Shown here one piece after another: positions 1 to 64,000 of a DNA stretch of 64,000 nucleotides. Below the pieces are notes generated by a model. The model made no database searches. It was not told where the DNA came from and was given only the letters and a program-made list of their open reading frames with translations. This stretch comes from a virus. Its lineage: Duplodnaviria; Caudoviricetes. A program made the position numbers and the translations under genes. The stretch lies in IMG/VR virus record IMGVR_UViG_3300032007_000009, one strand, 5' to 3'. Positions within the stretch are counted from its first letter, which is position 1, and each line of letters opens with the position of its first letter.

Positions 1-25
1 TTCTTAAAAAATATTTCACTGAATA

Positions 26-53
26 TTGAAATTGTTTTAAAAAGAACTATATT
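26..53 (+). promoter_or_regulatory. Putative phage promoter TTGAA-N15-17-ACTATATT driving the tRNA operon
   Basis: Same bipartite motif recurs at 5362, 7886 (variant), 22006, 27318 and 58415, each upstream of a + strand unit. Confidence 0.55.
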
Positions 54-100
54 ATTAATATAATATTTAAATTCTAATATTATTTAGAAAATTGAATTCG

Positions 101-118
101 AGATCTTTGACATGTTGG
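101..118 (+). promoter_or_regulatory. boxA-like antitermination element
   Basis: AGATCTTTGACATGTTGG resembles rrn-leader boxA (TCTTTGACA); lies between promoter and first tRNA. Confidence 0.5.
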
Positions 119-292
119 TACAAAAAATATAAAAACTGATTAGGAAGAGGAGTGGTGGAAAACCCCTTTCAATGGGATGCCAAGCAACCCAGCGAAATAG
201 TTCAGTAAATATAATATGGTCAGTAACCACAGTTGAATTTATTCACAAGTTGGTCAGTAACCATTAACAGAATTTCCTTATCATTATAAAAT

Positions 293-375
293 GCCTTCTT
301 CGCATAGTTGTCGATTGCACCGCACTTGTAATGCGGATCCTTTCGGACACGTTGGTTCGAATCCAACAGAAGGCT
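293..375 (+). tRNA. tRNA-Thr(TGT) with long variable arm
   Basis: GCCTTCT/AGAAGGC acceptor, CCGCA-CTTGTAA-TGCGG, GTTGG-TTCGAAT-CCAAC, 14-nt V region. Confidence 0.85.
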
Positions 376-614
376 CAAGTCGGAAGTTAAGTAATAACAT
401 CCTGGCGTATGGTATCAACTGCATTAAATTGTAAATGAACGAGTAGCCCTCAGAGTAAGATGAATTGAATGGACAAACTTCGGGAGATTAATTAATCGTT
501 ATTACCGGTTATTCAATTATTAACAAATGAAATGAGATTACCAAAGGAATTGTTGAAAGAGTAAGTCTTGGGAAGGTCGGGAAGTGAAATACAACCCACG
601 GCGATTTTTAATTT

Positions 615-687
615 GGGGGCGAATGTTCCAAGGCAGGCGATTGACCTTTGCAAGGTTGATGGGAGAGTTCGATTCTCTTCGTTTCCA
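615..687 (+). tRNA. tRNA-Ala(TGC), divergent
   Basis: G3-U70, A73, loop TTTGCAA, TTCGATT T-loop. Confidence 0.75.
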
Positions 688-694
688 CAATTAA

Positions 695-796
695 GTTACA
701 CAATGCTGTGTTGGTTATCAAACGAGTGGACGCAACATTTAGATTATTCTATAAATCGCAGAACGTATCATGGGTTCGAATCCCATTTGTGTAACA
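695..796 (+). ncRNA. tRNA-like RNA (acceptor + T arm, no recognisable anticodon arm)
   Basis: GTTACACAA/TTGTGTAAC closing helix adjacent to ATGGG-TTCGAAT-CCCAT. Confidence 0.5.
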
Positions 797-900
797 ATCG
801 GCTCATTATTGAGAGTTAATAATATTATACATGATGAAAGACTGCAAACTTTCTGATTGGCTTTCATTAATGAACAAGAGGTTCAGATTGCAGCTGAACA

Positions 901-1005
901 TATGTAATGGTGTAGTTGGGAGCACACTGCGCGAAGCTTTAGGGTGCCAAGAGAAATTCCTTATAAAGGCAGCGCGGAGGGTAGGGTTCGAATCCCGTTA
1001 TGTAG
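901..1005 (+). ncRNA. tRNA-like RNA with ~39-nt insert in place of the anticodon loop
   Basis: D arm GTGT-AGTTGGGA-GCAC, stem CTGCGC/GCGCGG enclosing the insert, GGG-TTCGAAT-CCC; weak acceptor. Confidence 0.5.
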
Positions 1006-1154
1006 CAAATATAAAACATTCATAAAAGAAATCAGTCAGGTCGCGAACTGCAACTCAAAGTAGGTTATGAATGAGTCCGTTCGAATAATTTGATAATTCA
1101 GGGTGCTCTGAACACTCTCACATCGGTAGAAGTAGAATCCGGTGCGGACAAATT

Positions 1155-1226
1155 GCTCCGTTAGCTCAGTGGTAGAGCAGTAGACTGTTAATCTATTGGT
1201 CGTAGGTTCGAATCCTTCACGGAGCG
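1155..1226 (+). tRNA. tRNA-Asn(GTT)
   Basis: Canonical cloverleaf, loop CTGTTAA, G73. Confidence 0.92.
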
Positions 1227-1233
1227 CAATTAT

Positions 1234-1308
1234 GGGGATATAGCTATAATGGTTAGAGCAGCGGCCTGTTAAGCCGACGGTTTGTGGGTTCGAATCCCTC
1301 TGTCCCCG
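1234..1308 (+). tRNA. tRNA-Asn(GTT)
   Basis: GGGGATA/TGTCCCC, loop CTGTTAA, G73. Confidence 0.88.
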
Positions 1309-1385
1309 CACGGTTGGTGTTTATAAATTTTAACGTTACAAAAGGTTTAGCAACTGGAACCGAAACAGGAAAAAATTTATCGCAT

Positions 1386-1465
1386 GCCTCCATGGCGGAA
1401 AGGTCTACGCAGCAGACTTAAAATCTGTCCTTAATTGGGTCTGGGTTCGAATCCCAGTGGAGGTA
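1386..1465 (+). tRNA. tRNA-Leu(TAA)
   Basis: Type II cloverleaf, loop CTTAAAA, A73. Confidence 0.9.
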
Positions 1466-1508
1466 CAATATTGAAATAAATTAGTAAATAATCTATTTTA
1501 ATATATAT

Positions 1509-1593
1509 GCCGGGATGGTGTAAAGGTAGCCACGAGGGACTTAAAATCCCTTGGACCGGAAGGTTCGTGCGGGTTCGAGTCCCGCTCCCGGTA
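1509..1593 (+). tRNA. tRNA-Leu(TAA)
   Basis: AGGGA-CTTAAAA-TCCCT, long V arm. Confidence 0.93.
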
Positions 1594-1626
1594 CATAATA
1601 AAGGATCACTTAGGTGACAGATATTT

Positions 1627-1701
1627 GGTCCATTGGTATAACGGTTAGAATATGTGACTGTCGATCACAAGATGAGGGTTCGACTCCCTCATGGACCGCC
1701 A
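1627..1701 (+). tRNA. tRNA-Asp(GTC)
   Basis: TGTGA-CTGTCGA-TCACA, G73, encoded CCA. Confidence 0.93.
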
Positions 1702-1722
1702 AATAACTAAGTGATTAAATTT

Positions 1723-1797
1723 GGTGGCGTGGTTTGAATAGGTTACAATGCCGGACTGTCAATCCGTGTGGTGGGGGTTCGAGTCCCCTCGTCACCG
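1723..1797 (+). tRNA. tRNA-Asp(GTC)
   Basis: GGTGGCG/CGTCACC, loop CTGTCAA, G73. Confidence 0.85.
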
Positions 1798-1977
1798 CAA
1801 ATAGAAATTAACATTTATAAATAAATAAAATTAAAACATATGAAAACATTGAAACGAAAACGTTAAATGTGTATGTTTCCATAAAGCAATTGGTATTTGA
1901 GTTTTTCCAATAAGAAGCATGCACTATAAATCAAAATTAAACTTGAACAATCAAATTTAAATTGAATTATTTTGTAT

Positions 1978-2053
1978 GCCTCTGTAGCTGAGTGGTAAAG
2001 CTCCAGCCTTTTAAGCTGCGTGATCGTGGGTTCGATTCCCACCGGAGGTACCA
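1978..2053 (+). tRNA. tRNA-Lys(TTT)
   Basis: Loop CTTTTAA, encoded CCA. Confidence 0.9.
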
Positions 2054-2057
2054 TATT

Positions 2058-2146
2058 GCTTCGTTCGTATATCGGTAAGTGCTGGAGACAGACGATTACC
2101 TCTGACTTTTAATCAGATAAGCTGGGTTCGACTCCCAGACGAAGCA
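2058..2146 (+). tRNA. tRNA-Lys(TTT) with ~17-nt hairpin insert in the D-loop
   Basis: GCTTCGT/ACGAAGC, TCTGA-CTTTTAA-TCAGA; extra CTG-GAGA-CAG hairpin after D-loop GG. Confidence 0.8.
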
Positions 2147-2154
2147 CAATAAAT

Positions 2155-2228
2155 GCTCCGTTAGCTCAGCTGGTCAGAGTAGGTGTCTCTTAAACATCGG
2201 GTCCTGGGTTCGAATCCCAGCCGGAGCA
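2155..2228 (+). tRNA. tRNA-Lys(CTT)
   Basis: GGTGT-CTCTTAA-ACATC, canonical arms. Confidence 0.9.
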
Positions 2229-2239
2229 CAAATAAATTT

Positions 2240-2313
2240 GGGGGTATCGTTCAGCAGGTAAGGATATCTGGCTTACATCCAGAAGATCGGTGGTTCGAAT
2301 CCATCTGCCCCTA
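2240..2313 (+). tRNA. tRNA-Val(TAC)
   Basis: TCTGG-CTTACAT-CCAGA, A73. Confidence 0.9.
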
Positions 2314-2693
2314 CTTTTGCATGTCATGTTAAGAATTAATCTCTGATACATGAATTATCATAGATAAAGAATTAATTATAGATGTCAAATGACGGAGGTT
2401 AACATATAATCATTCTAATCCTGTAGTATAAAGGTCTTGTGATTATAATTATACAGTTGAAATTCTGTGAAGAAATGATTTTCATATTGAAAATCAGAAT
2501 GAAGAAGAAATGGAAATGGATATGATTAATCTGTTTGAGAAAATCGATTAATCTTTAGGGAATAAACCTACCCCTTTATAGTAGGTAATGGTAAACATCG
2601 CGTTTATCTACGGGTGAATCTAAACTGATACCGTGTAGAGTGCTACATAAAATGTTTAGCAGTTTGTAGAAACACTGTGAGTTTCTACTTTTT

Positions 2694-2783
2694 GGGCCGG
2701 CAGCAACGATTGGTGGTGTTGTGCTAGACTGTAAATCTAGTCCCTCCGGGTAAACATTGGGGGTTCAAGTCCCTCCCGACCCA
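2694..2783 (+). tRNA. tRNA-Tyr(GTA)
   Basis: CTAGA-CTGTAAA-TCTAG, long V arm, A73. Confidence 0.85.
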
Positions 2784-2859
2784 CTGGCATCAGAACCAAG
2801 GTTCGAATCCTTGGAGAAGTAGTACTACTTAGTTTAGAAATGGTTAAAACGGTGTAAGT
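2784..2859 (+). ncRNA. Circularly permuted tRNA mimic (T arm, closed acceptor-like hairpin, then D arm; YrlA-like topology)
   Basis: GCATC..CAAGG-TTCGAAT-CCTTG..AAGTAG-TA-CTACTT..GTTT-AGAAATGGTTA-AAAC..GGTGT. Confidence 0.6.
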
Positions 2860-2948
2860 CCGAGTTTTATTAAAAATTAAATTTTAAGAGTTATGAAGGA
2901 AGCAGTATTTTATTGTGGTATAGATGACTCAGAAGCATTCTATACCAA

Positions 2949-3040
2949 GCCAGTCTAACGTTCGGTGGTCTGTAAAACCACTCCGCTTTAACAAATAGAC
3001 GTATGGTTGCGGTAAATAGGTTCGAATCCTTTGACTGGCA
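2949..3040 (+). ncRNA. D-armless tRNA-like RNA, anticodon GTA, long variable arm
   Basis: GCCAGTC/GACTGGC-A, only 9 nt between acceptor and GTGGT-CTGTAAA-ACCAC, TTCGAAT T-loop. Confidence 0.7.
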
Positions 3041-3115
3041 CTAAGCTTCTGTTTATAAATTTTAGATTGCTTTAGTTAGGCATAACTTAAAAGGAATGGT
3101 AAAAATTTATCGTAT

Positions 3116-3250
3116 GCCGGTTTATCACAGTATATTGGTAACTGTAGCCGCCCCGTACAGGCGGGTTCAACCAATCGAAAGTATATAGTTCGAGACAATA
3201 TATATGAATAGAAGTTGAATATGTGAATAGGTTCGATTCCCACGATGGCA
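3116..3250 (+). ncRNA. Degenerate tRNA-like RNA with ~55-nt variable-arm insert
   Basis: D stem ACAG/CTGT, CCGCC-CCGTACA-GGCGG, insert closed by TTCAAC/GTTGAA, bulged T arm, imperfect acceptor. Confidence 0.5.
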
Positions 3251-3258
3251 CAAATGAT

Positions 3259-3329
3259 GACCCCATAGCTTAGTGGTAAAGCCCGTGACTTTTAATCACG
3301 TGACCTGGGTCCGATTCCCAGTGAGGTCA
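3259..3329 (+). tRNA. tRNA-Lys(TTT)
   Basis: CGTGA-CTTTTAA-TCACG; variant T-loop TCCGATT. Confidence 0.85.
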
Positions 3330-3347
3330 CAAAAATATTTTGAATAT

Positions 3348-4010
3348 ATGTTTAATTGTAAATATTGCAATAAAGAATGCAAAAATTTAAATTCATTACA
3401 TAACCATGAAATTTTATGTAAAGAAAATCCAAATCATAAAGAATCTAATTTTATTAAATTTAATAAAGATACTTCTCGTAAGCATTCAAATCAATATATA
3501 AAAGCTAAAGAAGAAGGAAAAGAAATAATTATGTCTGATGAAACAAAGAAAAAAATATCTTGGCTAGGAAAATATCATTCAGAAGAATCAAAACAAAAAA
3601 TTTCTAAATCAAGAAAAAAATATTTAAATAATAATCCAGATAAAATTCCTTTTAAGTTAAATCATTCGTCAAAACAAAGTTATCCAGAAAAATATTTTGA
3701 AGAATTATTCATTAAAGAAAATATTCCATTAAAATATCATAAACAGATTGATAGATATGAATTAGATTTTTATAATGAAGATTTAATGAAATATGTAGAA
3801 ATTGATGGAGAACAACATTATTCAGATTATATGATTCAACATGATAAAGAACGTAATGAATATTTAAAACAAAAAGGTTGGGAAGGAATTAGAATACGTT
3901 GGTCTGAATATAAAAAAATGAATAATGATGATAAATATAAAGTAATTAATAGTATAAAAGAATTTATTAATTGCCTCCTTGGCGTTAATGGTAGCGTACC
4001 AGATTCTTAA
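3348..4010 (+). CDS. Free-standing homing endonuclease (Zn finger + NUMOD3-like + DUF559/Vsr-like nuclease)
   Basis: CKYC..HEILC, GKYHSEESKQKIS (NUMOD3-like), YELDF..VEIDGEQH..HDKERNEYL..GWEGIRIRW; true start likely ATG 3348 since the upstream extension lies in a tRNA. Confidence 0.8.
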   Translation: MFNCKYCNKECKNLNSLHNHEILCKENPNHKESNFIKFNKDTSRKHSNQYIKAKEEGKEIIMSDETKKKISWLGKYHSEESKQKISKSRKKYLNNNPDKIPFKLNHSSKQSYPEKYFEELFIKENIPLKYHKQIDRYELDFYNEDLMKYVEIDGEQHYSDYMIQHDKERNEYLKQKGWEGIRIRWSEYKKMNNDDKYKVINSIKEFINCLLGVNGSVPDS

Positions 4011-4045
4011 TCTGCGAGGTCTGGGTTCGAGTCCCAGAGGGGGTA
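3973..4045 (+). tRNA. tRNA-Lys(CTT)
   Basis: GCCTCCT/AGGGGGT, loop TTCTTAA. Confidence 0.85.
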
Positions 4046-4055
4046 CAAATTATAT

Positions 4056-4127
4056 CGCGGAAGCAGTGTGTTGGTCGCATACAAGGCTCATAACCTTAGT
4101 GGTGGGGTTCGATTCCCACTTCCGCAA
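4056..4127 (+). tRNA. tRNA-Met(CAT), initiator-like
   Basis: C1:A72 mismatch, loop CTCATAA. Confidence 0.8.
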
Positions 4128-4385
4128 CTAAATTTTATAAATCGATATGGAAAAAAGAGGTGAGGCATTTGGAAAAATCTGCAGAAAGTACAAATGAGAT
4201 TGAGAGTTCCTCGAGTACGTTGACGTTGACTATACGTACACCGTTAGCTGGTAAGAGATATCCCTCGTTAAATCGAGATAGTCAAAAGGACATTAAAGCT
4301 ACCTGTGGTCAATTGAAGTAGTGAATAGGCATCCTGGACCGCAACCTTGAACACGGTTTAGAAGAAGATTTATAAAATTTAATTT

Positions 4386-4464
4386 ACAGCGGTATCGTCG
4401 CAGTCTTATACACTGACATTAACCACGTAATAGGTGTATGTGGGTTCGAGTCCCACCCGCTGTA
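4386..4464 (+). ncRNA. D-armless tRNA-like RNA, anticodon TAT, long variable region
   Basis: ACAGCGG/CCGCTGT-A, ~8-nt linker, CAGT-CTTATAC-ACTG, GTGGG-TTCGAGT-CCCAC. Confidence 0.7.
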
Positions 4465-4469
4465 CATTT

Positions 4470-4606
4470 GGGTAGGTAACATAAGAAAAGATTTAAAACT
4501 TCGTTCGTTGTTCTCCGAAAGGTAGTGTAGAATCGTGAGTTACTTCAAAGGTTAATGTATTTGTCTGTTAAACAAAAGAGTGTTGGTTCGAGTCCAGCCC
4601 TACCTA
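4470..4606 (+). tRNA. tRNA(GTT, Asn anticodon) with ~64-nt Y-RNA-like insert in the D-loop
   Basis: GGGTAGG/CCTACCT, D stem ACAT/ATGT split by insert ~4485-4548, TTTGT-CTGTTAA-ACAAA, T arm intact; A73 rather than G73. Confidence 0.75.
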
Positions 4607-4624
4607 CAATGTGGCGACGGCCAC

Positions 4625-4689
4625 GGGCCAGTAGTAATAAGAGAAAAACACCTGACGGGGAGTTGGAGGTTCAAATCCTCTCTGGTCCA
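4625..4689 (+). ncRNA. 65-nt Ala-identity tRNA mimic lacking an anticodon loop
   Basis: GGGCCAG/CTGGTCC with G3-U70 and A73, T arm GGAGG-TTCAAAT-CCTCT, anticodon arm reduced to CC-TGAC-GG. Confidence 0.6.
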
Positions 4690-4699
4690 CAATTATAAT

Positions 4700-4831
4700 G
4701 GTGCAGTAGCTAAACGGGAATTAAAAAACTTCATTCGTTTTTCTTCAGTAATTGATAGTGTAGAGTGCGAGTTACTTCAAAGCATTAATATGTAAAATTA
4801 AGGAAAGTTGGTTCGACTCCAACCTGCACCG
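4700..4831 (+). tRNA. tRNA-like RNA (loop ATGTAAA, GTA) with ~60-nt Y-RNA-like insert in the D-loop
   Basis: GGTGCAG/CTGCACC-G, D stem GCT/AGC split by insert ~4718-4779, TTAAT/ATTAA stem, short V loop. Confidence 0.7.
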
Positions 4832-4902
4832 CAAATTCCTATAGGCAGCTGGTTATTAGGGTCTTGTCTCCAGCTGTGAACAAAAAAGACCGACCACTAA
4901 AT

Positions 4903-4988
4903 GTGTCTTTGGCCGAGCGGTTAAGGCAGCAGACTGTTAATCTGCCGTGGAGAAATCCCAATCGTAGGTTCGAATCCTACAGGGCACG
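4903..4988 (+). tRNA. tRNA-Asn(GTT) with long variable arm
   Basis: GCAGA-CTGTTAA-TCTGC, 18-nt V region, G73. Confidence 0.85.
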
Positions 4989-5006
4989 CTACATTCTTGC
5001 AAGAAT

Positions 5007-5078
5007 CGGGATTTGGTGTAATGTTAAGCACAGGGTTGTATTTGTGCAACCAGGTGAAGTTCAAATCTTCGGTCCCAA
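5007..5078 (+). pseudogene. Degenerate tRNA-like RNA, anticodon not assignable
   Basis: D stem GTGT/GCAC, GGTTG/CAACC stem with 8-nt loop, GAAG-TTCAAAT-CTTC. Confidence 0.45.
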
Positions 5079-5088
5079 CAAAAAACTA

Positions 5089-5332
5089 GGCGATGGAGTT
5101 TAATAAGGAAGTTTTCTGTTTAATTTTCCGGCAGGACTGTTATTTTTATATTAATGGCAATACTTATCGACGGGTAAGCACCCAAATATAAAGTATAACA
5201 AATTAAACAAGATGTGTGGTTAGAGGTCAAGCAGGCCCGGGAGAAAGTGAGGAACCAAGTTTCCACATGTTGAAAACAAAGAATACCGGCGTGACAAGCC
5301 GGAGGCTATGGGTTCGAGTCCCATCATCGCTA
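5089..5332 (+). tRNA. tRNA-Val(GAC) with ~170-nt structured insert in the D-loop
   Basis: GGCGATG/CATCGCT-A, D stem GTTT/GAAT, CCGGC-GTGACAA-GCCGG, ATGGG-TTCGAGT-CCCAT; insert closed by GTTTTC/GAAAAC. Confidence 0.75.
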
Positions 5333-5441
5333 CAAGTTTATTAAAACTATTTTGAATTTAATTGAATAATATTAATATATAAAACTATATTTTTAATAAT
5401 TAACGAAGTTATTATAAAAAAGTATTATAATTAATTACAAT

Positions 5442-5514
5442 GGGATTTAGGTCAAACGGTTAAGATGTCTGCCTGTCACGCAGCACGGAGCGGGTTCAAC
5501 TCCCGTAAGTCCCG
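5442..5514 (+). tRNA. tRNA-Asp(GTC)
   Basis: CTGC-CTGTCAC-GCAG, G73. Confidence 0.85.
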
Positions 5515-5522
5515 CATAATTT

Positions 5523-5596
5523 GGGGTGTTGGCGCAGTCGGTTAGCGCAGGAAGCTTATACCTTCAAGGTCGGTGGTTCAAGTCCATCACACCCTA
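5523..5596 (+). tRNA. tRNA-Ile(TAT)
   Basis: GAAG-CTTATAC-CTTC, canonical arms, A73. Confidence 0.88.
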
Positions 5597-5625
5597 CTTA
5601 AAAGAAATAACTATTATTAATATAT

Positions 5626-5709
5626 CGTGGGGTAGTCTAATGGTAAGATGCAAGGCTCATAACCTTGAGACAGAAAATGCTTGTGTTGGTTCGATTCCAA
5701 CCCCCGCAA
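5626..5709 (+). tRNA. tRNA-Met(CAT), initiator-like, long variable arm
   Basis: C1:A72, CAAGG-CTCATAA-CCTTG, 17-nt V region. Confidence 0.8.
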
Positions 5710-5711
5710 CT

Positions 5712-5802
5712 AATTTCATTTGTTGTAGAGGAGAGTTACTTCATTTATAAAGAATTTTAGATCAGGTTTTCAAATACTTTCTTCGAGTGTTACAATGAAA
5801 TT
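5712..5802 (+). ncRNA. Free-standing Y-RNA-like module
   Basis: Bulged lower helix, TGTA/GAGTGTT internal loop, 9-bp helix GAGGAGAGT/ACTTTCTTC, followed by TACTTCA. Confidence 0.6.
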
Positions 5803-5803
5803 C

Positions 5804-5890
5804 GCCGGATTGGCCCAGTGGTCGACGGCGTCTGACTTGTAATCAGAATCTTGCAATACAGACACGTAGGTTCGAATCCTACATCCGGCT
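5804..5890 (+). tRNA. tRNA-Thr(TGT) with long variable arm
   Basis: GCCGGAT/ATCCGGC-T, TCTGA-CTTGTAA-TCAGA, 18-nt V region. Confidence 0.85.
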
Positions 5891-6032
5891 CATCAAAAGT
5901 AGTTAACGACTCAACGTAACGTATTTCGTCCCTGATAATTAGTAGCGACTAATCAAACGAGTTTCCTAATCGTAGGTAGGTATTGTGGTACGGTTATAAT
6001 CCACTTTATAAAATATATTTTATAAATAGAGG

Positions 6033-6686
6033 ATGAGAAAATCATTTTTGACATTTATTATTGGTTTGATGTTATGTTTTTCTTTAAGTTCATGTAATTC
6101 TTGTAGTAAGCAAGCTACAGAACCTATTAAAGATTCAACAGAAGTCATTGCACCAGTAAAAGCTGATTTAGTAGTTGAAAATCTTGTATCTACAGATCGT
6201 CAGGATATGTACATGAATTATGCTAAAGATTATCGTTGGTTTGAAACATGTATTGTTCTTAAGGATTTCTTGGATGAAGATTGTGACGGTACAGTAACTG
6301 GTGTATCTAACATTTTCCAAGCTGTTGTAGAAAAGGATAATGGTGCAGATGTTTTTGTAGTTATGTATACTCATACACCTGATACATCAGCAGTAGAAAA
6401 AGTTCATTCATTCTGGGTAGAAGATATGCCAATGGAGAATGAGGCTATTAAGTTAACATTTAAGGAAGCATTTGATAGAGTTATGCAAGCTAATGCTCCA
6501 AAGCCACATTCAAAACATGTTGTATTACGTAAAGAACTTGGACCAGTTAATTGTAATCCACAGTATATTTTTGGAAATCAACGTGCTCAACTTTATGTAG
6601 ATGCAGTAACTGGAGATGTTAGAACAGATAATCCAGTATTCCCAAAAGATAAGGGATTTAAAATGCCATTAGGTGAATGGCCTTAA
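6033..6686 (+). CDS. Putative lipoprotein, unknown function
   Basis: Signal peptide with lipobox LSSC; 217-aa ORF embedded in the tRNA array. Confidence 0.75.
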   Translation: MRKSFLTFIIGLMLCFSLSSCNSCSKQATEPIKDSTEVIAPVKADLVVENLVSTDRQDMYMNYAKDYRWFETCIVLKDFLDEDCDGTVTGVSNIFQAVVEKDNGADVFVVMYTHTPDTSAVEKVHSFWVEDMPMENEAIKLTFKEAFDRVMQANAPKPHSKHVVLRKELGPVNCNPQYIFGNQRAQLYVDAVTGDVRTDNPVFPKDKGFKMPLGEWP

Positions 6687-6726
6687 TTTAAATAAGGTTG
6701 GAAGTAATCCTTAAAACTTCCAATAT

Positions 6727-6798
6727 GGGGTCATCATATAGTGGCTATTATGCCAGCTTTGCAAGCTGGTCACCTGGTTTCGACTACCAGTGGCTCCA
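6727..6798 (+). tRNA. tRNA-Ala(TGC)
   Basis: G3-U70, CCAGC-TTTGCAA-GCTGG. Confidence 0.88.
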
Positions 6799-7008
6799 CA
6801 CGTATAAGTACCGTATATGAGATAATGTCGCTATATAGGGGTATAGTTTACAAAAGTTAAGTACTGGAAAGATGCTGATTTGATAGACATCCTAAAGTGA
6901 GATGCACATCATCAGGTTCCTCTGAATGGGTGATTAAATTCACAAACAGTAAGTAATCTTAACCCATATATTGGCAACTGTGCGTCAAATATTTTTATAT
7001 AGAGATAT

Positions 7009-7109
7009 AACAAACTTTGTTGTATTACAGAGATACTTCATATTTATTTATTGTTTGTTTGATTTTTATTTTTAGAAAAGATTCTTTGTAAAATTGTTAC
7101 AAGTTTGTT
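7009..7109 (+). ncRNA. Free-standing Y-RNA-like module with U-rich loop
   Basis: AACAAACT-T-TGT/ACA-AGTTTGTT, TGTA/AATTGTT loop, TTACAGAGA/TCTTTGTAA helix, TACTTCA. Confidence 0.6.
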
Positions 7110-7116
7110 TTAATAT

Positions 7117-7187
7117 TGGGCTATAGTATAATGGCAGTACACAAGATTTTGGTCCTTGTAGTGGCAGTTCGAATCTGCCTAGCCCAA
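7117..7187 (+). tRNA. tRNA-Gln(TTG)
   Basis: U1-A72, loop TTTTGGT. Confidence 0.88.
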
Positions 7188-7541
7188 CTAAAACTTATGT
7201 GAACGGATCATGACACTGGTTACCGTTTTTGCAGTCTGTAGGTATACATACAGATGAGGTTATCGGAGAAGAATGAAGGAACCGAAGGTTAGTAAAGTTT
7301 TAGAACACCTGACTTCACCAGAATAAGTTTTTTAAAATATATAGCGAGAACAGGCCTCTGAGTAGGAACTGGGGTAAGTCTAATAAGTACACCGGTCAAT
7401 TTTATTAGATGTAGTTCGGAGTTAATAATTACTGTCAGCCCAGTGAAAGGAGTTGAGTTTCGTGAGAGCTCATAAGGTGCAACGCAACAGAAATTCGTAT
7501 AGGTCTTTCAGTCCGTAGCTCGCAAATTTTCTCGCTAATAT

Positions 7542-7621
7542 ACGGAAGTGCCGCAGTGGTCGACCGGACTTGTCTCCAAAACAAGAATTATACGTCGTGG
7601 GTTCGAATCCTACCTTCCGTG
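7542..7621 (+). tRNA. tRNA-Trp(CCA)
   Basis: CTTGT-CTCCAAA-ACAAG, G73. Confidence 0.88.
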
Positions 7622-7629
7622 CAAAACCA

Positions 7630-7860
7630 GGGATCAGAGTTAAACGGACATTGTTTACTACTTGTTAATATGTTTGGCAACTTGCGGCATGGTGCAAAAC
7701 GCGTTTGTATTTCATAGATCGCAGAAGGTTAGATCAAAATGAGGCAGAGTTAAGATAATTGTTTTTAGGTATGAACGTGATACCGAGTTTTTGATTAAGT
7801 AAGAAATAACACTCGGAGATTAAACCGAGAGATATTGGGTTCGACTCCCAGTTGATTCCA
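7630..7860 (+). ncRNA. Short tmRNA-like RNA
   Basis: GGGATCA/TGATTCC-A (G3-U70, A73), stemless D loop ending GAC, TTCGACT T-loop, ~190-nt internal region; smpB encoded in window; tag frame not identified. Confidence 0.6.
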
Positions 7861-7974
7861 CAAATAAATTTTTTGTACCAACATATTGAATTTTTTATTA
7901 AAAAATTCTATTATTAAATTAATAACAGTACCGGATTTACTTCCTAATTTGAATTATAGTTGTCCGGTCATTTT

Positions 7975-8045
7975 GGTCCATTGGTATAGAGATTGTGCCG
8001 CTGCTTCTAACACAGCTGAGGTGGGTTTGAGTCCTACATGGATCA
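7975..8045 (+). tRNA. Probable amber suppressor tRNA (CTA anticodon)
   Basis: GGTCCAT/ATGGATC-A; GCTG(C)-TTCTAAC-(A)CAGC centres CTA at 8007-8009; the Arg(TCT) register pairs poorly. Confidence 0.65.
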
Positions 8046-8163
8046 CCTTTTTGGAGGAGAACATGGTATGAAATCCATGCAGTCCGACTTTGAAGGCTGA
8101 AGCTTTGAACGTTATTGAAGCCCTCTTTATTTTTATTTTATAACAAATTAAATTAATTAAATT

Positions 8164-8205
8164 ATGAAACAGTTTTGGTAGATTGCTGATTTAGGTTTTC
8201 CGTAA
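8164..8205 (+). CDS. Putative leader peptide MKQFW(amber)IADLGFP
   Basis: AT-rich start context; TAG at codon 6; ends Phe-Pro-TAA; followed by repeated TGTTCAA/TTGAAA-type pairing elements (TTGAAC). Confidence 0.4.
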
Positions 8206-8321
8206 ATTAAATGTATTTATTATTATGTTCAAAGTTTTCTTTGTGTTCAAAAATTTTGAACGGTTATATTTTATTGAACACCTTTTAGTTAAATTAAATA
8301 AATACATTAAATATTATAATT

Positions 8322-8771
8322 ATGGAAAATAAAGAATTAAGAAATGCATTAGTTAATGCAATTAAGAACGAGTTAAAAGATTTCACTCAAATTCAAAAGA
8401 ATTTAAAGAAGTCACGTAAATTAGAATTTCGTCCAAAGGACAAAAGCTTACAAGAAATTGTAGACGAAATTGATAGAAATGCAAGCAAAATTTCTACACT
8501 TATTTTTCATTATCGTTGGATTAGACACGGTCTTAAATATTGGAACAATAGAGATGTGCATTCATTTAAAGAGTATTATTTAAGTGATACATTTAATAAC
8601 AATTACTGGGGAGACTATTGGGATAAGGAAATCCTTTATGGTAGTAATAAAGGTAAAACACATGGTCAAATTATTACTGAACATGCAAAGAATTTCTTTA
8701 TCACAAAATGCAATGAATATGGTATTGAAATTTCAGAAAACAATGTCAATTATTTAATGCAAAATATTTAA
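8322..8771 (+). CDS. Hypothetical phage protein
   Basis: ORF track, operon context. Confidence 0.7.
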   Translation: MENKELRNALVNAIKNELKDFTQIQKNLKKSRKLEFRPKDKSLQEIVDEIDRNASKISTLIFHYRWIRHGLKYWNNRDVHSFKEYYLSDTFNNNYWGDYWDKEILYGSNKGKTHGQIITEHAKNFFITKCNEYGIEISENNVNYLMQNI

Positions 8772-8774
8772 GTT

Positions 8775-8996
8775 ATGGAACTTACTTACAAGATATTAAT
8801 TCAGAATGAAAAACAAGCACAAGATCTTATTAACGAATGGGATAATGATCAATGGAGACATTTTCTTCGATTAAAAGATTTTGAAAAATATCCTGCATTA
8901 GTATGTTATTATGATGATGAAAATGATTATTCAATGTCATATTCTGCTACTGTTTATTATTCTATAACTTATTTAGACGATTTTAAAAATTTATAA
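8775..8996 (+). CDS. Hypothetical protein
   Basis: Tightly packed ORF. Confidence 0.65.
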   Translation: MELTYKILIQNEKQAQDLINEWDNDQWRHFLRLKDFEKYPALVCYYDDENDYSMSYSATVYYSITYLDDFKNL

Positions 8997-8998
8997 TT

Positions 8999-9373
8999 AT
9001 GAAATTTACAAAAGAAGAACTTAAACAATTTATTTGGGATAATAGTAAGTTTAATTATATTTGTAAGAATATTTGTAAAGAACTTAGTCGATGGGATGAT
9101 TCTTTTAAATTTTCTGATGAATTTATAATGGAAGATAAAAAAGTAAGATGTGAAGGTGATGAATATTGGTCTTATGGTGGACATGAACATTACAGAAATC
9201 ATTTTGATATAGAATTACTTACTTATTCTAAAGATGAATTAAAAAAATATGTTGATAAAAAAATTGCTGAACGAGATGCTAAACTTAAAAAAGAAAACGA
9301 AATTAAGGAAGCATATCGTAAAGAACAAGAACTTAAAGAATTAAAAAGACTTAAAGATAAATATGAAAAATAA
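8999..9373 (+). CDS. Hypothetical protein
   Basis: Tightly packed ORF, C-terminal ELKRLKDKY motif. Confidence 0.7.
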   Translation: MKFTKEELKQFIWDNSKFNYICKNICKELSRWDDSFKFSDEFIMEDKKVRCEGDEYWSYGGHEHYRNHFDIELLTYSKDELKKYVDKKIAERDAKLKKENEIKEAYRKEQELKELKRLKDKYEK

Positions 9374-62724: not shown

Positions 62725-63444
62725 ATGTTAGTTACATTAAATTGGATCTCAGAAAACTACAACAAATACAATAAACTTTGTTGGAATGGACAACTTCCTA
62801 ATATTGTTTTTAAGATTTCTCGTTCAAAGAAAACTTGGGGATATGCTTCATTTAAGTATGATTATCCAAACAATACAATTATTCCTGAGATGATTACAAT
62901 GTCTAACTACTATGATTCTCCCGAGGAAGTTAAATTGAATACCCTTCTTCATGAGATGATTCATATCGCAGATTACACATTTCATCCAGAGCACTTCATT
63001 CAGAATAACAAAAGAGTATCTGGTCATTACTATGACGCTCATGGTTATTGGTTCAAAAAAGAATGCAATCGTTTGAAGAAATTTGGTTTTAATGTAACAA
63101 ATAAAGTTGAGAATTCTGAGATTAAGGTTTCAAGAATGTCAGATAAAGCAAAGATTGCAGAAATGCACAAAGTTAATAATGCTCTTATCTGTGTAGTTTA
63201 CGGTACAAATTGTAATTTCTATTTTAAGACAGATATTTATAAAGTAAATTATCTTAAGAAAGAGTTAAAGAATTATACTTGGTATAAGATTGGTGATATC
63301 CGTAAGATTAAGTTCTATACTTTTAAAGATGAGAAATATGCAACTATGAGATCTTGTGGAAAACGAGTTCGCGGGTGGCATGCAGATAATAAGAGAACAA
63401 TGAATTTTCTCGAGAAAATTAATGCAACAGATTATATTTGTTAA
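62725..63444 (+). CDS. SprT-like zinc metalloprotease
   Basis: TLLHEMIH..HGYWFK. Confidence 0.85.
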   Translation: MLVTLNWISENYNKYNKLCWNGQLPNIVFKISRSKKTWGYASFKYDYPNNTIIPEMITMSNYYDSPEEVKLNTLLHEMIHIADYTFHPEHFIQNNKRVSGHYYDAHGYWFKKECNRLKKFGFNVTNKVENSEIKVSRMSDKAKIAEMHKVNNALICVVYGTNCNFYFKTDIYKVNYLKKELKNYTWYKIGDIRKIKFYTFKDEKYATMRSCGKRVRGWHADNKRTMNFLEKINATDYIC

Positions 63445-63474
63445 ATTTGAATAAAAAAATTAAAGATAAATAAT

Positions 63475-63891
63475 ATGAAACATTATAGAATTATAGAAAC
63501 AGGAGAAGGTTTTACTGTTCAAGATAGATTTCTTTGGTTCTTTTGGTTTGATTGTTCAGAACCATATTTTATATATGATGGTTGTGATCTTGTTAAAAGA
63601 GATTCCCAATGTTGGTTATATGACACTCTTAGTGAAGCAAAAGGAGCAATTGAAAGAATGAAACATATGTTCTATGATTATAAAGGACATACAATTATTT
63701 ATTATATGGATTACAATCTAGAAAAACATTTTGTAGATTTGGATTCATCATATAAAGATTATAAAGGAGATAAAAAATATAAAATTTTTGGAGATACACT
63801 TGATGATGTTAAACAAAAAATTACATACGCCGAATGGGATAAATCAGTAAAAAGAGATAAAAAGAAAACTAAGAATATATATTACGTATGA
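63475..63891 (+). CDS. Hypothetical protein
   Basis: ORF track. Confidence 0.65.
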   Translation: MKHYRIIETGEGFTVQDRFLWFFWFDCSEPYFIYDGCDLVKRDSQCWLYDTLSEAKGAIERMKHMFYDYKGHTIIYYMDYNLEKHFVDLDSSYKDYKGDKKYKIFGDTLDDVKQKITYAEWDKSVKRDKKKTKNIYYV

Positions 63892-64000
63892 AAGAATATA
63901 AGAAACCAATGACAGTTAAAGATTTAAGAGATTATCTTGATGAACTTATATCTAAAAGAAAATCTATTGGGCACATGACTATAGGTTTTTGGGTACCTGA
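63888..64000 (+). CDS. Hypothetical protein, truncated by window end
   Basis: ATGA overlap; MKEYKKPMTVKDLRDYL... Confidence 0.55.
   Translation, partial: MKEYKKPMTVKDLRDYLDELISKRKSIGHMTIGFWVP

What the first reader, a model, noticed from the sequence alone, without database searches (positions are those of the whole stretch)
4470..7109. Y-RNA-like module occurring both free-standing and circularly permuted inside tRNA D-loops
Seen: four copies of one architecture, namely a lower helix with a single bulged T, an internal loop TGTA opposite ..T(G/T)TT, an ~9-bp upper helix, then TACTTCA. Free copies lie at 5712-5802 (GAGGAGAGT/ACTTTCTTC) and 7009-7109 (TTACAGAGA/TCTTTGTAA, U-rich loop). In tRNAs 4470 and 4700 the strands are swapped: 3' strand first, lower helix capped by GAAA or GTAAT, and the tRNA body takes the place of the loop. 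Upper-helix sequences differ while pairing is kept (covariation). Known: Y RNAs have a bulged Ro60-binding stem, an internal loop, an upper stem and a variable loop, human Y1 has GUGAGUUAUCUCA at the position matching GUGAGUUACUUCA here, and bacterial YrlA RNAs join this stem to a tRNA mimic through the anticodon stem. Inference: a different Y-RNA topology joined through the D-loop, leaving acceptor end and anticodon intact, so potentially chargeable Ro60-tethering tRNAs or decoys for anticodon nucleases and RNA repair.
Basis: partly seen in the sequence, partly recalled or inferred. Interest (0 to 1): 0.92.

Follow-up and report, generated by a model that had tools for sequence, protein, structure and literature searches.

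The report
Phage Y-RNA-like handle, free and tRNA-embedded
The four elements are real copies of a conserved small RNA "handle" that, in many other phages, lies directly beside the gene for a Ro60-type RNA-binding ring protein, so it is most likely an undescribed kind of phage Y RNA that can stand alone or be built into a whole tRNA.

Summary
Observation confirmed. The window holds two free copies (5712-5801, 7009-7108) and two permuted, capped copies inside tRNA D-loops (4498-4547 in a tRNA-Asn frame, 4728-4779 in a tRNA-Tyr frame). The same tRNA array holds six to seven more copies upstream of the window.

The anatomy is: lower helix, one bulged U, two pairs, an asymmetric loop (UGWA opposite N2-3-URUU), a 9-bp upper helix, then single-stranded UAC(U/A)UCA. 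Covariation is strong: 113 distinct sequences, 94.8% paired, and all 19 pairs show compensatory changes.

The decisive result is genomic context. In unrelated phages, including cultured crAss-like Bacteroides phages, clusters of this module abut a TROVE/Ro60 gene. In 80 viral loci fetched through that protein, 62 carry the module. All 145 matches lie on the gene's strand, typically 140-290 nt away.

The Y-RNA reading is therefore supported by context. However, the canonical Ro60-binding motif and the Rfam Y/YrlA models do not match. This phage record (83% complete) shows no Ro60 gene. Chargeability and binding are untested. RNA-run contigs show the inserts retained, with no spliced form seen.

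I found neither an Rfam family nor a paper describing it. Earlier unchecked notes of this scan report similar Ro60-plus-handle RNA families on other DNA. Class: new variant of a known kind.

The parts
4470..4606 (+). tRNA frame with anticodon GUU (Asn type). Acceptor, anticodon and T arms are intact, and the D-loop carries the module.
   Evidence: Read. Rfam tRNA matches model positions 10-63 at 4545-4598. Deleting the insert lets ARAGORN call tRNA-Asn(gtt), with the junction in the D region.
4498..4547 (+). Permuted, capped module: 3' strand of the upper helix, GUUGUU, lower helix CUCC/GG-U-AG capped by GAAA, UGUA, 5' strand of the upper helix, UACUUCA.
   Evidence: R2 65.5 bits, E 1.6e-10. 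Alignment A1 and pair counts.
4700..4831 (+). tRNA frame with anticodon GUA (Tyr type, short variable region, discriminator G). The module lies in the D-loop, 3' of the GG.
   Evidence: Read. Rfam tRNA 26 bits at 4757-4831. Deleting the insert gives tRNA-Tyr(gta).
4728..4779 (+). Permuted, capped module. The lower helix CUUCA/UGA-U-AG is capped by GUAAU.
   Evidence: R2 67.9 bits, E 5.7e-11.
5712..5801 (+). Free module with a 30-nt apical loop, wedged between tRNA-Met (5626-5710) and tRNA-Thr (5804-5891).
   Evidence: R1 77.2 bits, E 1e-13. Fold. tRNAs.
7009..7108 (+). Free module with a U-rich 40-nt apical loop, 8 nt upstream of tRNA-Gln (7117-7188).
   Evidence: R1 79.6 bits, E 3e-14. Fold. 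Small indels in an RNA run fall in its loop (7045, 7050).

Best explanation
The elements are copies of a conserved RNA handle that marks a phage class of Ro60-partner RNAs, that is, Y RNAs in the operational sense.

Shown:
- The handle consists of a lower helix, a bulged U, an R-Y pair and a G-C pair, an asymmetric internal loop, a 9-bp helix and a single-stranded UAC(U/A)UCA. The loops keep their sequence while the helices covary.
- The family is encoded next to phage Ro60/TROVE genes on the same strand.
- The top of the handle is a 'cargo port'. It holds a short loop, a tRNA-like piece, or, when the RNA is circularly permuted and the lower helix is capped, a whole tRNA joined through its D-loop or anticodon stem.

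Inferred:
- A Ro60-type ring binds the bulge and internal-loop region, and perhaps the UACUUCA strand.
- The cargo, tRNA-shaped as in YrlA, recruits or presents tRNA-handling factors or gates the ring, as known Y RNAs do.
- In this phage the free copies are probably released as 80-145-nt RNAs when RNase P and 3'-end processing cut out the tRNAs that flank them within 1-8 nt. The embedded copies use the tRNA's own ends.
- The Ro60 partner for this particular phage is not identified. It may lie in the missing about 17% of the genome or be supplied in trans.
For: - Structure: 94.8% paired and 19 of 19 pairs with compensatory change in 113 distinct sequences, against 36-49% when partners are slid. 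Near-invariant positions are listed.
- Partner gene: the ORFs abutting module clusters in two unrelated phages are TROVE (PF05731, E 1e-12 and 6e-10, above cut-off) plus a Ro60-type vWA domain.
- By sequence search of solved structures, their only matches at E<=0.01 are Thermus phage Ro60.
- A predicted model's 13 best PDB matches (all those with E<=0.001) are all Ro60/Rsr, aligned over the full length.
- Association tested from the protein side: of 80 viral loci fetched with the TROVE alignment, 62 have R1 matches. There are 145 matches, all on the gene's strand and none inside the gene. The median distance is 138 nt downstream or 292 nt upstream. R2 adds 101 matches.
- Controls: 0 matches in 100 bacterial loci. 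In 141 genomes of one bacterial family, only one has the module, and it is the only one with a TROVE gene, on the same contig and directly upstream.
- Cultured crAss-like phage PhiCrAssBcn4: the TROVE CDS is followed by 880 unannotated nt holding 2 free and 2 tRNA-embedded modules.
- This phage encodes RtcB. In Salmonella, rsr, the Y RNA genes and rtcBA share one operon (PMC7790460).
- RNA-run contigs pass through the insert-bearing tRNAs without a joint.
Against: - No TROVE gene was found in this 236-kb record by Pfam profile, by the phage protein or by tblastn. None was found in six other fragmentary module-bearing records. In TROVE-bearing phages the gene abuts the modules, whereas here nothing of the kind lies near the array.
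- The published Ro60-binding motif is absent, and the Rfam Y_RNA and YrlA models do not match.
- Binding has not been shown.
- 18 of the 80 TROVE loci, mostly high-GC, gave no R1 match.
- Adjacency could in principle reflect a cis-regulatory or processing role in the TROVE operon.
Confidence: 0.75

Rival explanations
1. The module binds some factor other than Ro60, or is a processing or stability element of polycistronic tRNA transcripts (for example an RNase III-type or other endonuclease site). Its position beside TROVE genes would then be a by-product of both living in tRNA and early-gene regions.
For: This phage has 10 copies but no detected TROVE gene. Free copies sit tightly between tRNAs. 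The two-helix, internal-loop shape resembles phage RNase III sites (own knowledge of the T7 sites).
Against: - Same-strand adjacency to TROVE occurs in 62 of 80 loci at a median of 138-292 nt.
- In crAss-like phages the TROVE gene and its modules are not inside the main tRNA array.
- There is one-to-one co-occurrence in 141 bacterial genomes.
- A cleavage site inside a tRNA D-loop or anticodon stem would destroy the carrier.
Confidence: 0.12
2. The tRNA-embedded copies are introns. The module directs excision, and the phage RtcB or its ATP-dependent ligase reseals the tRNA.
For: The phage encodes RtcB. Removing the insert restores a canonical tRNA. An insert in the anticodon stem, as in other phages, looks incompatible with decoding.
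Against: - No splicing endonuclease (PF01974) was found, and no bulge-helix-bulge is visible at the boundaries.
- No ribozyme family matches.
- RNA-run contigs carry the inserts, and no joint removes them (contigs cannot prove absence).
- Most family members are free-standing, not in tRNAs.
- Insert boundaries and linkers are not conserved.
Confidence: 0.06
3. The modules are decoys or shields against host tRNA-targeting defences, such as anticodon nucleases, independent of Ro60.
For: The phage invests heavily in tRNAs and in RNA repair. Carrier anticodons (GUU, GUA, UUG, UUU) belong to classes attacked by known anticodon nucleases (own knowledge).
Against: - Carriers span many isotypes, and many copies carry no tRNA at all.
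- The conserved parts are the handle, not the anticodon loops, which vary between orthologues.
- This reading does not explain the TROVE adjacency.
Confidence: 0.04
4. The module is a small self-cleaving ribozyme. Circular permutation is typical of such motifs.
For: Conserved loops with covarying helices, and natural permutation.
Against: No match to any Rfam ribozyme family at E<=10. RNA contigs run uninterrupted through all four window copies. This reading does not explain the TROVE adjacency.
Confidence: 0.03

Closest known systems
Bacterial and phage YrlA-type Y RNAs with Rsr/Ro60 (Chen et al. 2014, PMC4201824; Rfam RF02553)
   Same: - A small RNA encoded beside a Ro60 orthologue on the same strand.
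- A stem with a bulge and internal loop formed by the 5' and 3' ends, plus a tRNA-like effector part.
- One copy in another phage (G002 154588-154729) carries T arm, capped hairpin and D-like arm in the YrlA order.
- M. smegmatis YrlA is opened by RNase P and receives CCA. It thus ends up as a tRNA-like body with an open acceptor end, much as the permuted copies are encoded here.
   Different: - No GNCGAAN0-1G motif, and no match to the Rfam model.
- A different conserved handle, including an invariant single-stranded UAC(U/A)UCA.
- Many copies per genome (2-5 beside the gene, 10 in this phage).
- The cargo is often just a short loop.
- Some copies are built into complete tRNA frames through the D-loop or the anticodon stem.
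Thermus phage phiLo Ro60 with Yrl1/Yrl2 (PMC12135203; PDB 9KOP, 9L5Y)
   Same: A phage-encoded Ro60 with phage-encoded partner RNAs next to the gene. This protein is the closest solved relative of the TROVE proteins found beside the module.
   Different: Yrl1 and Yrl2 were picked by their CGAA motif and stem-bulge-stem shape; the handle here has no such motif. Identity to that protein is only about 18% in the fold alignment.
Metazoan Y RNAs (Rfam RF00019)
   Same: The general plan: a terminal helix with a single bulged pyrimidine, an internal loop, an upper helix and a variable loop.
   Different: No sequence or model match.
Archaeal tRNA introns at non-canonical sites, and circularly permuted tRNA genes
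   Same: Inserts in the D-loop or anticodon stem of otherwise normal tRNA frames.
   Different: No splicing endonuclease, no bulge-helix-bulge, no spliced form seen. Here it is the module, not the tRNA, that is permuted.

Membership tests
Y RNA in the operational sense (Ro60-partner RNA) | Encoded close to a Ro60/TROVE gene, on the same strand | tested here: met
   Met for the RNA family: 62 of 80 TROVE loci, 145 of 145 matches on the gene's strand, median 138 nt downstream or 292 nt upstream. Co-occurrence in 1 of 141 genomes for both features, on the same contig. Not met for this phage record, where no TROVE gene was found.
Y RNA in the operational sense (Ro60-partner RNA) | Physical binding to Ro60 | not testable with these tools
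   Needs gel shift, pull-down or RIP-seq.
Y RNA in the operational sense (Ro60-partner RNA) | Terminal helix with bulge and internal loop, plus a variable effector loop | tested here: met
   Folds and covariation.
YrlA / canonical Y RNA (Rfam RF02553, RF00019) | Conserved Ro60-binding sequence (GNCGAAN0-1G in bacteria, GGUCCGA in vertebrates; PMC4201824) | tested here: not met
   The motif is absent from the conserved columns. CGAA occurs only by chance, in some C-GAAA-G caps of permuted copies.
YrlA / canonical Y RNA (Rfam RF02553, RF00019) | Match to the Rfam covariance models | tested here: not met
   No hit at E<=10 in window 1-9000, nor at E<=1 beside the TROVE genes of two other phages.
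YrlA / canonical Y RNA (Rfam RF02553, RF00019) | tRNA-like domain in the order T arm, capped acceptor-like hairpin, D arm | tested here: inconclusive
   Seen by eye and RNAfold in one copy of another phage. The window's free copies have plain loops, and its embedded copies carry ordinary, unpermuted tRNA frames.
tRNA intron (protein-spliced or self-splicing) | Splicing endonuclease or ribozyme core, and a spliced product | tested here: not met
   No PF01974, no intron or ribozyme family in Rfam, and no joint across the inserts in three RNA runs. The runs are contigs, so this is weak evidence.

The most novel reading that the evidence does not exclude
The embedded copies are working, chargeable phage tRNAs that carry a built-in Ro60 handle. 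A Ro60-type ring, phage-encoded elsewhere or borrowed, would then be tethered directly to tRNAs. This could hand damaged phage tRNAs to the phage's RtcB/Rnl repair enzymes or shield them from host nucleases. It would be a direct physical link between the Ro60 surveillance machine and the translation apparatus. A phage with ten handles and no Ro60 gene of its own would be exploiting someone else's ring.
Probability: 0.12. Interest if true: 0.9.

Novelty: new variant of a known kind. Interest (0 to 1): 0.78.

Why it matters
Ro60 and Y RNAs form a conserved RNA-surveillance particle whose bacterial and viral roles are still poorly understood. In bacteria and phages, few partner RNAs beyond the YrlA/Yrn type and the two Thermus phage RNAs are described.

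This finding gives a sequence-defined, strongly covarying handle that identifies the likely partner RNAs of a large, divergent clade of phage Ro60 proteins. That clade includes cultured crAss-like phages of Bacteroides, where the prediction can be tested at once.

It also shows natural modularity. The same handle occurs with no cargo, with tRNA mimics, and circularly permuted into complete tRNA frames at two different sites. This bears on how Y RNAs arose from tRNAs and on how phages manage or protect their own tRNA pools.

In practical terms, these insert-bearing tRNAs and the free modules are missed by ARAGORN and by the annotation of the one public record examined.

Tried and rejected
- Rfam at E<=10 over window 1-9000 and at E<=1 beside TROVE genes gave only tRNA matches: no Y_RNA, YrlA or ribozyme.
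- Splicing endonuclease PF01974 is absent. DUF2828 is absent, but the control did not ring either, so that search shows nothing.
- A 389-aa ORF conserved in the tRNA arrays of G000-like phages was tested as a hidden Ro60. Pfam gave nothing, the atlas gave nothing usable, and hhalign against the TROVE alignment gave probability 0.4%. Rejected.
- By blastp, G003 shares only ThyX and a 153-aa ORF with G000. Neither is an RNA-binding candidate.
- The first loose pattern scans were swamped by chance hits. The viral scan was mostly single chance matches, and 100 loci of the genome-contig scan gave 0 model matches.
- About half of the hits of the stricter hairpin pattern are a conserved protein-coding stretch (..CFEKLIVGHRVTSPML..), not RNA.
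- Three more distant tRNA-array relatives fetched through the array's 217-aa ORF have no module.
- Ideas dropped after looking at variation:
  - Cas12a repeat mimic: one copy is 16/21 identical to my recollection of the Francisella repeat, but the repeat's stem is broken and other copies differ.
  - TGT or anticodon mimic (UGUA/UGUU): UGAA, UGGA and UAUU variants occur.
  - Pairing of UACUUCA to 16S rRNA: the neighbouring 'complement' covaries away.
  - MITE with terminal inverted repeats: the 'repeats' differ between copies and covary.
- ARAGORN after trial deletions confirms the carrier tRNAs but is too permissive to fix exact insert boundaries.
- The structure prediction of the TROVE protein is of low confidence (pLDDT 58.5). 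It was used only for the ranking of fold matches.
- Sequencing runs: only contigs were available, so RNA ends, strand and level could not be read.
Full report
**1. What is in the sequence**

The window starts inside a 19-kb tRNA array of a 236-kb, very AT-rich virus record from rumen-type samples (83% complete). ARAGORN tRNAs between genome positions 62.8 and 81.9 kb.

The motif TGTA-N8-12-TACTTCA occurs five times in the window against 0.36 expected.

Read from the sequence, the two free copies are:
- 5712-5801, between tRNA-Met and tRNA-Thr, with gaps of 1-2 nt;
- 7009-7108, 8 nt before tRNA-Gln.

Each has a 9-11-bp lower helix, one bulged U, two more pairs, the loop UGUA opposite GAGUGUU or AAUUGUU, a 9-bp upper helix, then UACUUCA and a loop of 30-40 nt. 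RNAfold recovers this fold.

In the tRNA frames 4470-4606 (anticodon GUU) and 4700-4831 (GUA), the same parts appear in the permuted order:
- 3' strand of the upper helix;
- (G)UUGUU or GUUUUU;
- a short lower helix capped by GAAA or GUAAU, with the same bulged U;
- UGUA;
- 5' strand of the upper helix;
- UACUUCA.

All of this lies inside the D-loop. In the Asn-type frame it lies 5' of the GG, and in the Tyr-type frame 3' of the GG.

**2. More copies, and covariation**

Searching the whole record with two covariance models gives the following copies, all on the + strand and all within the tRNA array. R1 was built from seven free copies and R2 from seven permuted copies.
- Seven free copies, at genome 64248, 66092, 66679, 66916, 67385, 79992 and 81289.
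- One weak free copy at 64019.
- Three permuted copies, at 67649, 78778 and 79008.

Free copies are flanked within a few nucleotides by tRNAs. Normal tRNA processing would therefore release them as discrete small RNAs; this is inference. Two free copies (64248 and 67385) hold a tRNA-like body in their apical loop.

Pair counts support the structure:
- Free set: 96.2% paired, 14 of 19 pairs with changes on both sides, 0 of 500 shuffles as good, and 47-55% paired when partners are slid.
- Permuted set: 89.8% paired.
- Between orthologues in a close relative, the top pair of the upper helix flips from U-A to A-U.

**3. Rejected first ideas**

- Rfam gives nothing but tRNA at E<=10.
- No TROVE gene (PF05731) and no splicing endonuclease are found in the record, although an RtcB ligase is present.
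- RNA-run contigs from rumen metatranscriptomes run straight through both insert-bearing tRNAs (4347-5251) and the first free copy (5454-6829). No joint removes an insert. Contigs cannot exclude a minor spliced form.
- Likenesses to a Cas12a repeat, to anticodon loops and to the complement of 16S rRNA dissolved once the variation among copies was seen.

**4. The decisive context**

The module also occurs in phages that share almost no genes with this one:
- G003, a 57.7-kb fragment, shares only ThyX and one small ORF with G000 by blastp.
- The 40 kb held of G002, a 255-kb phage, shares no ORF with G000 at E<=1e-5.

In both, several modules sit in a tight cluster: five in 700 nt in G003, and four in 600 nt in G002.

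Clustering the ORFs around modules from 17 phage groups showed one protein next to the clusters in six of the groups. Evidence on that protein:
- Pfam identifies it as TROVE plus a Ro60-type vWA domain (E 1.2e-12 and 5.7e-10, above cut-off).
- Its only sequence matches among solved structures are the Ro60 of Thermus phage phiLo (PMC12135203).
- A predicted model of low confidence (pLDDT 58.5) has as its 13 best PDB matches, all those with E<=0.001, only Ro60/Rsr structures, aligned over the full length.

**5. Testing the association from the protein side**

An alignment of four of these proteins fetched 80 viral loci, each centred on a relative of the gene. Results:
- R1 finds 145 modules in 62 of the 80 loci. 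Every one is on the gene's strand and none is inside the gene.
- In 51 loci they lie downstream (median 138 nt), and in 11 loci upstream (median 292 nt).
- R2 adds 101 capped modules.
- The 18 loci without an R1 match are mostly high-GC and may hold diverged versions. This was not tested.

Controls:
- 100 bacterial and archaeal loci (730 kb) picked by a loose sequence pattern gave no match.
- In 141 genomes of one bacterial family, a single genome has the module. It is also the single genome with a TROVE gene, on the same short contig and directly upstream of the two modules.

In the protein-anchored set (113 distinct sequences) the structure is 94.8% paired, and all 19 pairs show compensatory change. 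The near-invariant positions are:
- bulged U (98%);
- an R-Y pair, then a G-C pair (96%);
- U(91) G(98) W A(73);
- U(100) A(94) C(100) W U(100) C(97) A(82) after the upper helix;
- U(96) R U(100) U(100) C(94) Y on the 3' strand.

The handle is kept in AT-rich gut phages and in phages of 50-60% GC alike.

**6. Cultured phages**

G003's TROVE protein is 98.5% identical to that of the PhiCrAssBcn series (Kehishuvirus, host Bacteroides intestinalis). A review reports that the related phage crAss001 has a TROVE domain protein among its early genes (PMC10136315).

In PhiCrAssBcn4 the TROVE CDS is followed by 880 unannotated nucleotides. They hold two free modules, the first starting 5 nt after the stop codon, and two capped modules inside tRNA frames that ARAGORN does not call.

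**7. Where the capped module is inserted**

- In this phage and in one crAss-type carrier, the insert is in the D-loop.
- In another crAss-type carrier and in several other phages, it follows a complete D arm and interrupts the 5' strand of the anticodon stem, around positions 28/29 (boundaries read by eye).
- Carriers have many anticodon types (GUU, GUA, UUG, UUU, UGU, UGG).
- The Tyr-type carrier's orthologue in related phages has a different loop with A at position 33. That body is therefore probably not selected as a decoder.

**8. Interpretation**

By the criterion used to find bacterial Y RNAs (a structured RNA next to a Ro60 orthologue on the same strand; PMC4201824), this family qualifies. 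Its plan parallels YrlA: a protein-binding stem formed by the ends, plus a tRNA-like effector part.

It is not a member of YrlA or of canonical Y RNA as defined. The GNCGAAN0-1G/GGUCCGA motif and the Rfam models fail. [quoted passage not shown]

What is shown:
- the structure;
- the conservation pattern;
- the permutation;
- the genomic coupling to Ro60.

What is inferred:
- that Ro60 binds the handle;
- what the cargo recruits;
- how the RNAs are released.

For this phage the partner protein is missing from the 83% in hand. In TROVE-bearing phages the gene abuts the modules, so its absence near this array is a real caveat. A trans-supplied ring or a Ro60-independent use cannot be excluded.

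**9. Prior knowledge**

Phage Ro60 genes are known (mycobacteriophages, jumbo phages, Thermus phage phiLo; PMC4201824, PMC7824862, PMC12135203). I found no paper or Rfam family describing this handle or Y-like RNAs of crAss-like phages. The paper library is incomplete.

Earlier notes of this scan on other genomes describe phage Ro60-like proteins with multi-copy 'handle' RNAs carrying tRNA-like cargo. I read them after reaching the TROVE link. They agree in kind, but I did not check whether their handles are the same sequence family.

Noticed in passing
window 5089-5334: An RNA-run contig (X9) spans 5094-5333, almost exactly the neighbouring 244-nt tRNA frame with a large D-loop cargo. In another RNA run an Illumina adapter follows position 5334. 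This suggests a discrete RNA that keeps its insert and ends at the tRNA 3' end.
   Followed up: partly
window 3348-4010; G000 63202-63945 and 64949-65998: Three paralogous ORFs lie inside the tRNA array, with DUF559/REase-like, NUMOD3 and C2H2 zinc-finger matches (homing-endonuclease-like). Relatives lie in the tRNA arrays of seven other module-bearing phage contigs.
   Followed up: partly
G000 68383-68706 and 69248-70417 (upstream of the window): An S24-peptidase-like ORF and a 389-aa ORF of no known family are conserved together near the modules in G000-like phages. The 389-aa protein is not related to TROVE by profile comparison.
   Followed up: partly
L478 (OQ221539.1) 3920-4799: In a public genome of a cultured crAss-like phage, an 880-nt stretch after the TROVE gene is unannotated. 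It contains four module copies and two insert-bearing tRNA frames that ARAGORN misses.
   Followed up: yes
L164 14953-15081 (- strand; G002): Between two of the four tandem modules upstream of the G002 TROVE gene lies another long hairpin, with a 15-bp stem around a U-rich loop, of unknown role.
   Followed up: no
about 60 viral contigs, e.g. L288, L292, L296: A conserved protein-coding stretch (..PAHYEYLSKECFEKLIVGHRVTSPMLLG..) matches the hairpin DNA pattern exactly by coincidence. It is a trap for pattern searches of this module.
   Followed up: yes
window 6968-7009, 7045, 7050: One RNA run carries a 40-nt deletion just upstream of the free copy at 7009, and 1-2-nt deletions in that copy's U-rich apical loop. 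This is strain variation confined to the non-conserved parts.
   Followed up: no
permuted copies in many loci (alignment A6): The caps that close the lower helix of permuted copies are mostly GNRA-like tetraloops on a C-G pair (GAAA, GUAA). This creates a chance 'CGAA' that could be mistaken for the published Ro60 motif.
   Followed up: partly
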